From Leucoraja ocellata (lineage: Eukaryota): a stretch of 64,000 nt of DNA. Position numbers and translations under genes: made by a program. Below, piece after piece: positions 62,501 through 63,942 of this stretch. Each line of letters opens with the position of its first letter. The first letter of the stretch is position 1. The DNA is taken from contig JAWMAR010000134.1 of assembly GCA_036785375.1 (NCBI GenBank), positions 5,270,001 through 5,334,000 of the forward strand, in the 5' to 3' direction. The notes beneath the pieces were generated by a model. The model was not told the DNA's origin. It was given only the letters and a program-made list of their open reading frames with translations, and did no database searches.

Positions 62501-63942
62501 CCACTAGTGTCGGATAATGCGGGACCTGCAGACGGCAAAAACAAAAAAGGATGGGCGGTCCCTGGGCTACGGATTTGTAGATTTTACGGAGCACAGCCAC
62601 TCCCTGGCCACTCTGCGCCACCTGAACAACAACCCAGAACCCTTTGGTCCAGAGAAAGTGAGTGAAGCCAAGTTTGGTGGGACTGTTCCGATTGGGATTG
62701 CTGAGATGTTTGGGGTTTGAGGTGGCATTGGCTTTCGTTGGCTCCAGGGTAGACATAAAATGCTGGAGTAATTCAGCGGGACAGGCAGCATCTCTGGAGA
62801 GAAGGAATGGGAGACGTTTCGGGACAGACTGAAGTCTGAAGAAGGGTCTCGACCCGATATGTCACCCATTCCTTCTCTCGAGATGCTGCCTGCCCCACTG
62901 AGTTACTCCAGCATTTTGTGTCTACCTTCAATTTAAATCAGCATCTGCAGTTCTTTCCTATATATTTTGTCCAAGCTCCAGGCTTTGATTTAGGGCTGCA
63001 GTTGGGACATAGAACCTGAAGGCTTTCTGCACTTCGGACTAGGCAGAAGCCGTCCACCCCCTGGTCATGTGTTTAGATACAACAGAGAAGGGCAGGATGC
63101 AAGTCTCTACTAATAGTGAAATAGTTTTGGACAAGATTGTTTTTGGCCAAAATCCCAGTTTCTATCAAGCTTACATTAAATAAATATTGCTTTTTCTCCA
63201 ATAGTTAGTCCACTGCATTCTTCAATATTTCACCTATTCCCCTCAGCAATTAGTGGGGAGACTGGGAATGTTTCCACGCAGTGCCCCCAAATTTACATCA
63301 ACACTCATCCCCATTATGAGAAATGTTTTCTTAAATGATCAAGTAAGAGAAGCAATTCTTTCCTGGGAAAGTGTTTGGATGTTACTGCTCTTAGATTCAA
63401 AATAGTTGACAGGGGACTCATTTGTAAGAGTAGGAGCTAAGAAAGCTGCGGAGAATCTAGATTGAATATAATTTGAAGAGCTGGTGGGGTGATGTACGAT
63501 GTATTGAATTACCCTTTTTCAGAGCTGTAAGATCATATATGTACCCAATACAGGGGCAGAGGTCCCATCCTGTTTCACTGTCAGAACTAATCTGAATAAG
63601 AGGGGAATCGGAGACTAAATCTTACACTTCATACTTTTATACTTAAATTTCATACTTTAGATAGCATTCCTTCTATGCCTGTTCTTTGCTGGTTACATAG
63701 AACGTCTTGTGCATTGTGGAAGAGGGATATCTTAAGGGTTAAAGAGGACCCTGCCTCCATTAACTGACATGAGATACTTCATTGATCAGTGTGCGGTGCT
63801 TTAATGCTGTGTCTCTTTCGAATCTGTAATATGATTCTCTCTGCTTTCCGTTCTTCCTCTGAAACAGAGACCAATTGTGGAATTTTCACTGGAGGATCGG
63901 AGGAAACTGAAGATCAAAGAGATGCGAGCACAAAACAATCTG
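41361..63942 (+). CDS. RBM28: RNA-binding motif protein 28 (four RRMs plus acidic region, nucleolar); 16 coding exons in window, 3' end lies beyond the window
   Basis: RRM1 [20 protein letters not shown]2 [31 protein letters not shown]; acidic block; RRM3 [31 protein letters not shown]4 [28 protein letters not shown]. All junctions GT-AG and in phase. Confidence 0.96.
42767..42910 (+). CDS. RBM28: RBM28 exon 2
   Basis: [18 protein letters not shown]; acceptor TAG, donor |GTGAGT. Confidence 0.93.
43393..43493 (+). mobile_element. Short Rex1-type 3' tail insertion with 13-bp target site duplication
   Basis: AGAATCCGTAGTG at 43380-43392 and 43494-43506; TGACAATAAA plus (ATTTC)n tail. Confidence 0.75.
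44161..44382. mobile_element. Penelope-type palindromic insertion with 13-bp flanking duplication
   Basis: TACTGAAAACACA on both sides; internal inverted repeat. Confidence 0.75.
44458..44549 (+). CDS. RBM28: RBM28 exon 3
   Basis: ...[13 protein letters not shown]; acceptor CAG, donor |GTACT. Confidence 0.92.
46380..46620 (+). mobile_element. CR1/HER1 LINE 3' end
   Basis: TGGAATTCTCTGCCACAGAGGGCAGTGGAGGCC...GGCCGAATGGCCT...(TTTCTATG) tail. Confidence 0.85.
46893..46933 (+). repeat. ~41-nt poly-C tract (poly-G on the minus strand); similar homopolymer tracts at 14283-14300, 14456-14476 and 20554-20573
   Basis: Direct inspection. Confidence 0.9.
48027..48099 (+). CDS. RBM28: RBM28 exon 4
   Basis: [24 protein letters not shown]. 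Confidence 0.92.
48490..48870 (-). mobile_element. Decayed Rex1/Babar-type LINE internal fragment
   Basis: [27 protein letters not shown] resembles the EN-RT linker (IRVFPNQKPWM) of this clade. Confidence 0.6.
49062..49907 (+). mobile_element. HE1-type SINE split by an antisense CR1/HER1 fragment (~49218-49748)
   Basis: SINE head to 49211, body resumes ~49749. The insert encodes [23 protein letters not shown]...[19 protein letters not shown] on the minus strand. Confidence 0.85.
50069..51325. mobile_element. Unclassified ~1.26 kb element bounded by 85-bp inverted repeats
   Basis: 50069-50153 matches the reverse complement of 51241-51325 at 78/85 positions. Confidence 0.6.
51606..51698 (+). 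CDS. RBM28: RBM28 exon 5
   Basis: [31 protein letters not shown]. Confidence 0.93.
52214..52285 (+). CDS. RBM28: RBM28 exon 6
   Basis: [24 protein letters not shown]. Confidence 0.92.
52994..53141 (+). CDS. RBM28: RBM28 exon 7
   Basis: [22 protein letters not shown]...APKK; phase 1 to 2. Confidence 0.85.
53560..54165 (+). mobile_element. CR1/HER1 LINE 3' fragment
   Basis: [15 protein letters not shown]...[17 protein letters not shown]. Confidence 0.88.
54555..54790 (-). mobile_element. L1-type retroposed 3' end with 18-bp target site duplication
   Basis: AGATGTATGTAATTTTTT at 54537-54554 and 54791-54808; AATAAA and A-rich tail on the minus strand. Confidence 0.7.
55131..55297 (+). CDS. 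RBM28: RBM28 exon 8 (acidic region, with a GAT-repeat poly-Asp run)
   Basis: [16 protein letters not shown]...[14 protein letters not shown]...EEED; phase 2 to 1. Confidence 0.88.
55523..55604 (+). CDS. RBM28: RBM28 exon 9
   Basis: [27 protein letters not shown]. Confidence 0.92.
56059..56168 (+). CDS. RBM28: RBM28 exon 10
   Basis: [36 protein letters not shown]. Confidence 0.93.
56254..56530. mobile_element. Tigger-like MITE
   Basis: TA|CAGGTCCTCCCCAGGTTATGA ... TCATAATCTGGGAGGACTT|TA imperfect terminal inverted repeats. Confidence 0.6.
57039..57112 (+). CDS. RBM28: RBM28 exon 11
   Basis: [25 protein letters not shown]. Confidence 0.92.
58386..58521 (+). CDS. RBM28: RBM28 exon 12
   Basis: [25 protein letters not shown]...[13 protein letters not shown]. 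Confidence 0.93.
58603..59975 (-). mobile_element. CR1/HER1 fragment split by an ~800-bp GC-rich non-autonomous retroelement (~58906-59707)
   Basis: CR1 sequence stops at GGGCAAGAGACTCT and resumes at GACTATCTGCATCTATCC; the insert ends in TGACAATAAA plus (TTGTA)n on the minus strand. Confidence 0.75.
60375..60439 (+). CDS. RBM28: RBM28 exon 13
   Basis: [22 protein letters not shown]. Confidence 0.92.
60898..61053 (+). CDS. RBM28: RBM28 exon 14
   Basis: [30 protein letters not shown]...ARIKE. Confidence 0.93.
62508..62657 (+). CDS. RBM28: RBM28 exon 15
   Basis: CRIMRDL...[33 protein letters not shown]. Confidence 0.93.
62748..62960. mobile_element. Penelope-type palindromic pLTR insertion with hammerhead-like core
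   Basis: GTAGACATAAAATGCTGGAG...CAGACTGAAGTCTGAAGAAGGGTCTCGACCCGATATGTCACC...CTCCAGCATTTTGTGTCTAC. Confidence 0.75.
63868..63942 (+). CDS. RBM28: RBM28 exon 16
   Basis: [25 protein letters not shown]; donor |GTAAGG. Confidence 0.92.

What the first reader, a model, noticed from the sequence alone, without database searches (positions are those of the whole stretch)
62748..62960. Abundant short palindromic repeat has a consensus minimal hammerhead ribozyme core (Penelope-like pLTR family)
Seen: at least 15 copies of one repeat family lie in this window (~697, 8605, 11758, 16541, 22350, 23270, 29625, 32170, 36350, 40715, 41855, 42240, 43713, 44161, 61820, 62748). Many are inverted tail-to-tail pairs, several with 12-15 bp flanking duplications. 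Comparing copies gives the consensus AGT-CTGAAGA-A-GGGT(CTCG)ACCC-GAAA-CG-TC-ACC. This reads as hammerhead CUGANGA, an extra A, a 4-bp stem II, GAAA, a palindromic ACGU in place of helix III, and a GUC cleavage triplet. Established: Penelope-like elements carry minimal type I hammerheads with a palindromic rudimentary helix III thought to act as dimers, and they insert as inverted pLTRs. A decayed PLE ORF end at 1-90 is linked to the copy at ~697. Inference: these are non-autonomous PLE-derived ribozyme retroelements, transcribed within CALU and RBM28 introns. Caveats: every copy here has at least one core substitution (62836: GAAA to GATA; 22412-22445 minus strand: C3 to A), and helix I is only ~2 bp in the consensus.
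Basis: partly seen in the sequence, partly recalled or inferred. Interest (0 to 1): 0.7.

Follow-up and report, generated by a model that had tools for sequence, protein, structure and literature searches.

The report
Penelope retrotransposon stubs with hammerheads
These short repeats are broken end-pieces of a known kind of jumping gene that carries a known self-cutting RNA motif; none in this window is intact, and the one oddity is that many copies start at the motif's front edge, which likely marks where the copied RNA begins.

Summary
The repeat is the 3' end (pLTR plus tail) of a Neptune-type Penelope-like element, and its consensus fits the published minimal hammerhead. A full 3,963-nt tandem unit with RT and GIY-YIG exists in this genome. 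About 172,000 intact cores are present genome-wide (controls 528), but 0 of 24 window copies are intact.

The 'non-autonomous ribozyme retroelement' reading is not supported. Short copies share subfamily variants with ORF-linked copies and carry their own target duplications. Inverted pairs are head-to-head, not tail-to-tail.

5' ends pile up at the hammerhead's front edge: 63 of 108 solo copies that reach it stop there, about 10 times background. Only 2 of 132 stop at the scissile bond, and only 1,004 of 80,553 young tails lack the expected pyrimidine there. The copied RNA was therefore mostly uncleaved and likely began at an initiator-like motif. Helix I has eroded from 4-5 bp in old subfamilies to 2 bp. 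Cleavage is untested.

The scan has noted this family many times on other DNA (69 notes in this genome fit the look-up). New member of a known kind.

The parts
62836..62863 (+). Minimal hammerhead core of the plus arm (C3 at 62836 to position 17 at 62863); broken by A14T (62858) and C15.2T (62860)
62833..62835 (+). 5' edge of the plus arm (AGT): 5' strand of helix I and the initiator-like position where copies typically start
62864..62962 (+). Tail of the plus arm, long form (end approximate)
62749..62832 (-). Inverted arm: short tail plus 3' half of the core, joined head-to-head to the plus arm
62741..62748 (.). Left copy of an 8-bp candidate target duplication (weak on its own)
62975..62982 (.). 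Right copy of the 8-bp candidate target duplication
62658..63867 (+). Host intron holding the insertion, between RRM-gene exons 62506-62657 and 63868-63942
   Evidence: spliced contig; RRM_1
1..91 (+). Decayed 3' end of the PLE ORF (begins 12 nt before the window)
692..756 (+). Decayed core and partial tail downstream of that ORF end, after an inserted repeat at about 400-690
61819..61961 (.). Head-to-head pair of the older subfamily type, 10-bp flanking duplication
44160..44322 (.). Head-to-head pair, 13-bp duplication
32205..32350 (.). Head-to-head pair, 15-bp duplication
36389..36545 (.). Old head-to-head pair
11766..12165 (.). Head-to-head pair with longer arms
22350..22445 (-). Solo copy, one core change (C3A)
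40712..40850 (+). Solo copy, two core changes
43714..43809 (+). Solo copy, core broken
16550..16640 (-). Solo copy, two core changes
29638..29743 (+). Solo copy, core rearranged

Best explanation
The repeats are 5'-truncated, decayed insertions of the 3' end of a Neptune-type Penelope-like retrotransposon that carries a minimal hammerhead motif, and they were likely made by the element's own reverse transcriptase running off the start of an uncleaved RNA. Shown: full-length tandem copies with RT and GIY-YIG exist; short copies have target duplications, two preferred 3' ends (about +92 and +130 from C3) and one preferred 5' end (-8..+1). Inferred: the endonuclease cuts the target. RT primes inside the tail at one of two sites, as for the anole element. 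When it uses the tail copy near the transcript's 5' end it runs off after 95-135 nt at a start site just before CUGA (about 0.5 for this step). When both target strands are extended, one from each site, the two cDNAs likely join by microhomology to give a head-to-head pair. The hammerhead is inherited from the source elements, likely weak or protein-dependent in recent subfamilies, and dead in this window.
For: Linkage: L115 has cores at 3477 and 7440 (unit 3,963 nt) around the ORF. L113 has an open 1,183-aa frame with RVT_1 at E 2e-6 and GIY-YIG at E 0.08; L115 has GIY-YIG at E 0.008, both below Pfam cut-offs. Atlas first hits at 0.97 are HTH_animal/RVT_1/GIY-YIG clusters. 18 of the first 20 long-ORF loci show a plus-strand core regex hit, 16 of them about 100-300 nt after the ORF. 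The C-x4-C-x2-C linker matches the Neptune description. 5' ends: 63 of 108 solo copies stop at -8..+1 (5.8% per nt) against 0.4-0.6% per nt elsewhere and 2 of 132 at the scissile bond; 14 of 28 in young subfamilies whose upstream UTR is known. Duplications of 10 bp or more in 14 of 56 short solo copies against 2 of 300 shuffled pairs. 1,004 of 80,553 exact young tails have a purine at position 17; of 30 inspected, 8 are point changes, 8 inverted junctions, 14 other, and 1 has a duplication abutting the bond. 20 of 75 pairs have duplications of 10 bp or more (control 9 of 300); 18 of those 20 are one short plus one long tail. Literature: internal RT initiation, both strands extended, hammerhead dispensable and protein-assisted (PMC11167929).
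Against: No RNA evidence for a start site: the lay reported no place where many molecules begin or end (fragmented libraries). No cap-like extra G: 31 G among 100 listed non-C bases at -4, counted by hand, against about 25 expected. 5' ends spread over about 10 nt, and some copies reach -7 or -8, before the proposed start. For older subfamilies missing from my 13 references, an alignment start at -5 could mark only the end of shared sequence. The same pyrimidine tract plus CAG also reads as a splice acceptor. Clade assignment rests on one motif, with no tree.
Confidence: 0.8

Rival explanations
1. Same element, but the 5' pile-up comes from RT stalling or template release at the folded 5' edge or before the pyrimidine-rich UTR, not from a transcript start.
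For: The predicted fold of recent copies is a long hairpin whose base lies at about -2..+1. The UTR just upstream is 69-88% pyrimidine. The spread of ends is about 10 nt.
Against: The peak recurs in subfamilies with different upstream sequence (table; UTR identities 0.23-0.69). RT unwinds a hairpin from its 3' side, so a stop at its far end is not expected (inference).
Confidence: 0.25
2. One reading: a separate non-autonomous, ribozyme-processed family (retrozyme- or SINE-like) with short master copies.
For: Only 18 of 349 random tails have an ORF end within 500 nt upstream. Length is uniform. A 2026 preprint derives retrozymes from PLE pLTRs.
Against: Short copies carry the same variants as ORF-linked copies. 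I saw no head-to-tail arrays of core-bearing units; the one array seen lacks CUGA. Ends do not match the scissile bond. Pair centres differ from copy to copy.
Confidence: 0.08
3. The motif in recent subfamilies is no longer a ribozyme and is kept as part of a promoter or an RT-binding element.
For: Helix I is 2 contiguous bp in five recent subfamilies against 4-5 in two old ones. Predicted probability of the first helix I pair is at most 1e-4 and of the helix II closing pair at most 0.045. One old subfamily has U4A in 11 of 17 copies. The tail is also conserved.
Against: 12 of 13 core positions are invariant across seven subfamily consensuses against 35 of 62 tail columns (Fisher p 0.013; partly circular). 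Changes fall at N7, loop II and position 17 (C or U). 2-bp helix I has precedents. The anole motif cleaves only with protein. Folding models do not score core contacts.
Confidence: 0.3
4. The 5' edge is a spliceosomal acceptor (pyrimidine tract plus CAG), as in D. virilis Penelope, and copies derive from spliced RNA.
For: CAG precedes helix I in all seven consensuses. D. virilis precedent.
Against: Target duplications abut the 5' edge with no exon in between. No splice joint into that site among the listed joints (83 joints not shown).
Confidence: 0.05

Closest known systems
[quoted passage not shown]
   Same: CUGANGA, extra nucleotide, G10.1-C11.1, GAAA, palindromic 15.2-16.2, NUH; mostly dispersed single motifs from truncated PLEs; GUU triplets and 2-bp helix I have precedents.
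   Different: No cartilaginous fish in the alignment part I read or by term search of supplement file 2. About 172,000 intact cores here against 4,000 and 9,000 in coelacanth and Xenopus (different search, and this assembly holds duplicates). Helix I is U-A/G-C or U-G/G-C only.
Neptune-clade EN+ PLEs (Craig et al. 2021, PMC8557442)
   Same: RT, CX2-5CxxC linker, C-terminal GIY-YIG; partial tandem; inverted 5'-truncated copy; 30-40 bp tail at one end.
   Different: ORF about 1,200 aa with a long proline-rich N-terminal half; about 1.4 million 3' ends estimated; most copies under 140 nt.
Poseidon_Ac of Anolis (Frangieh et al. 2024, PMC11167929)
   Same: Two RT start sites define the tail; no RNA ends at the hammerhead site; uncleaved RNA is the template.
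   Different: Other clade. There the ORF starts in stem II; here the ATG is about 135 nt after the scissile bond.
Adineta Pen2a_Av and relatives (PMC3846280)
   Same: Head-to-head inverted pLTRs, tail on one, 8-10 bp duplications, Inr-like motif in the pLTR.
   Different: Here the duplications are 10-18 bp and whole insertions are reduced to the two ends.
Non-LTR retrozymes (bioRxiv 10.64898/2026.07.22.740005)
   Same: PLE-derived, type I hammerhead, non-coding.
   Different: Defined there as tandem arrays with a complete hammerhead in consecutive units; these are dispersed solo or inverted stubs.

Membership tests
EN+ Penelope-like element | Single ORF with RT and C-terminal GIY-YIG | tested here: met
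   Pfam scores below the curated cut-offs
EN+ Penelope-like element | Partial tandem forming pLTRs | tested here: met
   L115, cores 3,963 nt apart
EN+ Penelope-like element | Inverted 5'-truncated copy, one-sided 30-40 bp tail, target duplication | tested here: met
   18 of 20 pairs with duplications of 10 bp or more are short plus long
Neptune clade | CX2-5CxxC linker between RT and EN | tested here: met
Neptune clade | RT phylogeny groups with Neptune, not Nematis or Poseidon | not tested
   no reference sequences held
Minimal type I hammerhead | Core nucleotides, extra nucleotide, G10.1-C11.1, helix II | tested here: met
   12 of 13 core positions invariant in seven consensuses; 0 of 24 window copies intact
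Minimal type I hammerhead | Palindromic 15.2-16.2 and NUH triplet | tested here: met
Minimal type I hammerhead | Helix I of 3-5 bp (2 bp in some published cases) | tested here: inconclusive
   4-5 bp in two old subfamilies, 2 bp in five recent ones
Minimal type I hammerhead | Self-cleavage as dimer or with protein | not testable with these tools
   genomic ends show no excess at the scissile bond
Non-LTR retrozyme | Tandem array with complete hammerheads in consecutive units | tested here: not met
   none seen among window and random copies inspected; the L185 array lacks CUGA; no genome-wide array search
Non-LTR retrozyme | Circular RNA from double cleavage | not testable with these tools
   libraries laid are unsuitable
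Rfam hammerhead families | Covariance-model match | tested here: not met
   no hammerhead hit in the window at E up to 10; intact copies elsewhere were not scanned

The most novel reading that the evidence does not exclude
Over a million stubs are strong-stop-like run-off cDNAs. They place the PLE transcript start three bases before the hammerhead and show that one target end is primed at the short site and the other at the long site. They also record a lineage in which helix I eroded while its 3' strand came to pair with the 5' strand of helix II, switching the ribozyme off by default as the element amplified.
Probability: 0.3. Interest if true: 0.55.

Novelty: new member of a known kind. Interest (0 to 1): 0.25.

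Why it matters
The kind of element and motif is published. The value is as a large fossil record of PLE insertion, whose mechanism and hammerhead role are still open. The ends argue that cleavage is not how the copied RNA is cut, and they give a precise, testable transcript start and priming asymmetry. Near-intact young ORFs make in vitro tests like those on the anole element feasible.

Tried and rejected
Rfam scan of the window: no hammerhead; the miRNA hits are inverted-repeat artefacts. PDB sequence search: 0 hits. Pfam on ORF fragments: 0 families and weak GIY-YIG only. Sequencing runs: no RNA holder listed. Raw RNA reads show the family on both strands, mostly the short unit, but cannot be assigned to copies, and no start, end or splice signal was listed. 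Cap-derived extra G: not seen. Host exon 5' of the motif: rejected by adjacent duplications. The first junction histogram mis-registered up to 65 copies against one reference holding two cores, so 60 fell outside the bins; one search corrects it and supplies the numbers used. The per-subfamily table is uncorrected. A search for an abundant intact GUC-GAC subfamily gave only 203 matches, mostly variants of recent subfamilies. The intermediate consensus uses 17 copies picked by eye from 26 unique; ungapped columns over all 26 are weak. The ancient consensus had its core and 3' arm fixed by the pattern, so only its 5' arm is a free test (13-19 of 24 per column). A one-copy cluster (O1) was dropped. 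Nine tails in a tandem array were dropped from density and junction counts. 'Not in print' rests on searches, which cover open-licence papers only. Repbase and Dfam were not searchable, and the preprint's supplements (which name its one chondrichthyan) were closed.

Full report
Observation. The repeat is real. A profile of the tail finds 24 copies in the window and 349 in 799,200 random bases of the same genome, against 0 in the reversed control. After dropping 9 hits in a tandem array and keeping E below 1e-3, 315 remain: one per 2.5 kb, or about 1.4 million in the assembly. The assembly holds near-identical duplicated stretches, so counts overstate haploid numbers. The exact 31-nt core occurs 15,546 times. 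A pattern fixing only the catalytic positions finds 111,541 copies with C17 and 60,508 with U17, controls 223 and 305. No window copy is intact (0 of 24). The copy in question is a head-to-head pair: a plus arm with core at 62836-62863 (A14T, C15.2T) and a long tail, and a minus arm with a short tail and half a core. It lies in an intron of an RRM-domain gene. EF-hand exons lie on the minus strand at 8005-17793. That the host is a skate or ray comes from earlier notes and was not tested here.

What it is. Copies with more upstream sequence run into a GIY-YIG domain and then an RT. A search with an N-terminal RT piece gave open frames up to 1,183 aa. L115 is a partial tandem: truncated copy, core at 3477, tail, ATG near 3641, ORF to 7320, core at 7440, tail. 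Pfam gives RVT_1 at E 2-3e-6 and GIY-YIG at E 0.008-0.08, below cut-offs, and the Atlas agrees. The linker motif C-x4-C-x2-C matches what PMC8557442 gives for Neptune (12 passages read). Only 18 of 349 random tails have an ORF end within 500 nt, so most copies are stubs.

The hammerhead. The consensus fits the minimal hammerhead of PMC4209133 (main text parts 1-2 of 4; supplement file 2 term search and part 2 of 3). Across seven subfamily consensuses, 12 of 13 core positions are invariant against 35 of 62 tail columns, while the upstream UTR varies from 101 to 376 nt at 0.23-0.69 identity. The exception is U4A in 11 of 17 copies of one old subfamily. The test is partly circular: the oldest subfamily was found with a core pattern and the recent ones were filtered for a core match. 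Helix I is 4 bp in the oldest subfamily, where the free 5' arm matched in 13-19 of 24 copies per column. It is 5 bp in the intermediate one (17 hand-picked of 26; weak over all 26). The innermost pair is U-A in one and C-G in the other. In the five recent subfamilies only 2 contiguous pairs remain, and the 3' strand can pair 4 of 4 with the 5' strand of helix II (G-U pairs make that easy by chance). Folding predicts that alternative hairpin, with helix II closing-pair probability at most 0.045. The youngest, ORF-bearing subfamily has GUU at the cleavage triplet. Cleavage was not testable.

How the stubs arise. I mapped 5' ends for 259 of 262 random copies (corrected). Of 151 solo copies, 63 of the 108 that reach the hammerhead's 5' edge stop at -8..+1, or 5.8% per base. 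Elsewhere the rate is 0.4-0.6% per base, and 2 of 132 stop at the scissile bond. In young subfamilies with a known UTR the figure is 14 of 28. Exact duplications of 10 bp or more flank 14 of 56 short solo copies (control 2 of 300); 12 of the 14 end within -8..+4. Genome-wide, 1,004 of 80,553 exact young tails have a purine at position 17. Of 30 inspected, 22 are junctions of some kind and 1 has a duplication abutting the bond. That bounds ends at that base near 2% of young copies, so a small cleaved fraction is not excluded. This agrees with PMC11167929 (parts 1-2 of 4), where RT starts at two sites in the tail, both target strands are extended, the hammerhead needs protein and uncleaved RNA is the template.

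My inference is that the transcript starts at the conserved CAGT motif, which matches the initiator consensus (recalled). PLE internal promoters with initiators are described in PMC2377424 and PMC3846280 (passages). RT primed on the first tail would then run off after 95 or 135 nt. Against this: no cap-like G, a 10-nt spread of ends, and no RNA start signal.

Inverted pairs. 108 of 259 copies have a partner 5'-to-5' within 450 nt and 26 have one 3'-to-3'. Of 75 pairs, 20 have duplications of 10 bp or more (control 9 of 300), and 18 of these join a short tail to a long tail. The other 2 are matches inside the element. Head-to-head layout and a one-sided tail are published. Priming of both target ends and joining by microhomology at palindromes in the motif is my inference; PMC3846280 instead proposes self-priming on an antisense template.

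Comparison and novelty. It works like, and passes the tested features of, an EN+ PLE with a minimal hammerhead. It fails the tandem-array definition of retrozymes (preprint part 1 of 5 and passages; supplements closed). My searches found no paper on this family in cartilaginous fish or on the 5' pile-up, but repeat databases and closed papers were not searched. PMC6155905 (passages) mentions sharks only for the ribozyme's name. After my analysis, earlier scan notes showed the same reading many times, including the pile-up. These are unchecked AI notes and not independent support.

Verdict. Correct catch of a known kind; dead copies here; modest value as a mechanistic record. Interest 0.25.

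Noticed in passing
L185:6576-6902 and 9311-9611 (G000:C10): Two tandem arrays of a 66-nt unit made of the element's tail from GAAA onward, 4.5-5 copies at 98% identity, lacking the CUGA half of the core.
   Followed up: partly
L365 and L366 (G000:C1, probably one duplicated locus); L389: ORF sequence joined at or within a few bases of position 1.1, as expected from a template jump at a cleaved RNA end; too few to weigh.
   Followed up: no
L113:3547-7095: Open 1,183-aa frame with a proline-rich, repeat-containing N-terminal half and an end that departs from sister copies inside the endonuclease; many near-intact young copies suggest recent activity.
   Followed up: partly
window 400-690: A different high-copy repeat (over 100 hits in the fetched loci) inserted between the PLE UTR and its hammerhead; identity not tested.
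   Followed up: partly
window 17111-17461 and 17422-17793, minus strand: Two similar adjacent EF-hand exons, consistent with duplicated alternative exons of the calumenin-like gene (name recalled).
   Followed up: no
L303-L332: An older subfamily has A at core position 4 in 11 of 17 selected copies together with a 5-bp helix I.
   Followed up: partly
Subfamily consensuses, positions 17 and 1.1: CG, TG and CA are each fixed in different subfamilies, the pattern expected from CpG decay in source copies; all keep a cleavable triplet and the innermost pair.
   Followed up: partly
L003/L004, L012/L013, L022/L023, L063/L065: Loci 97-98% identical over kilobases: the assembly holds duplicated or haplotypic stretches that inflate counts.
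   Followed up: no
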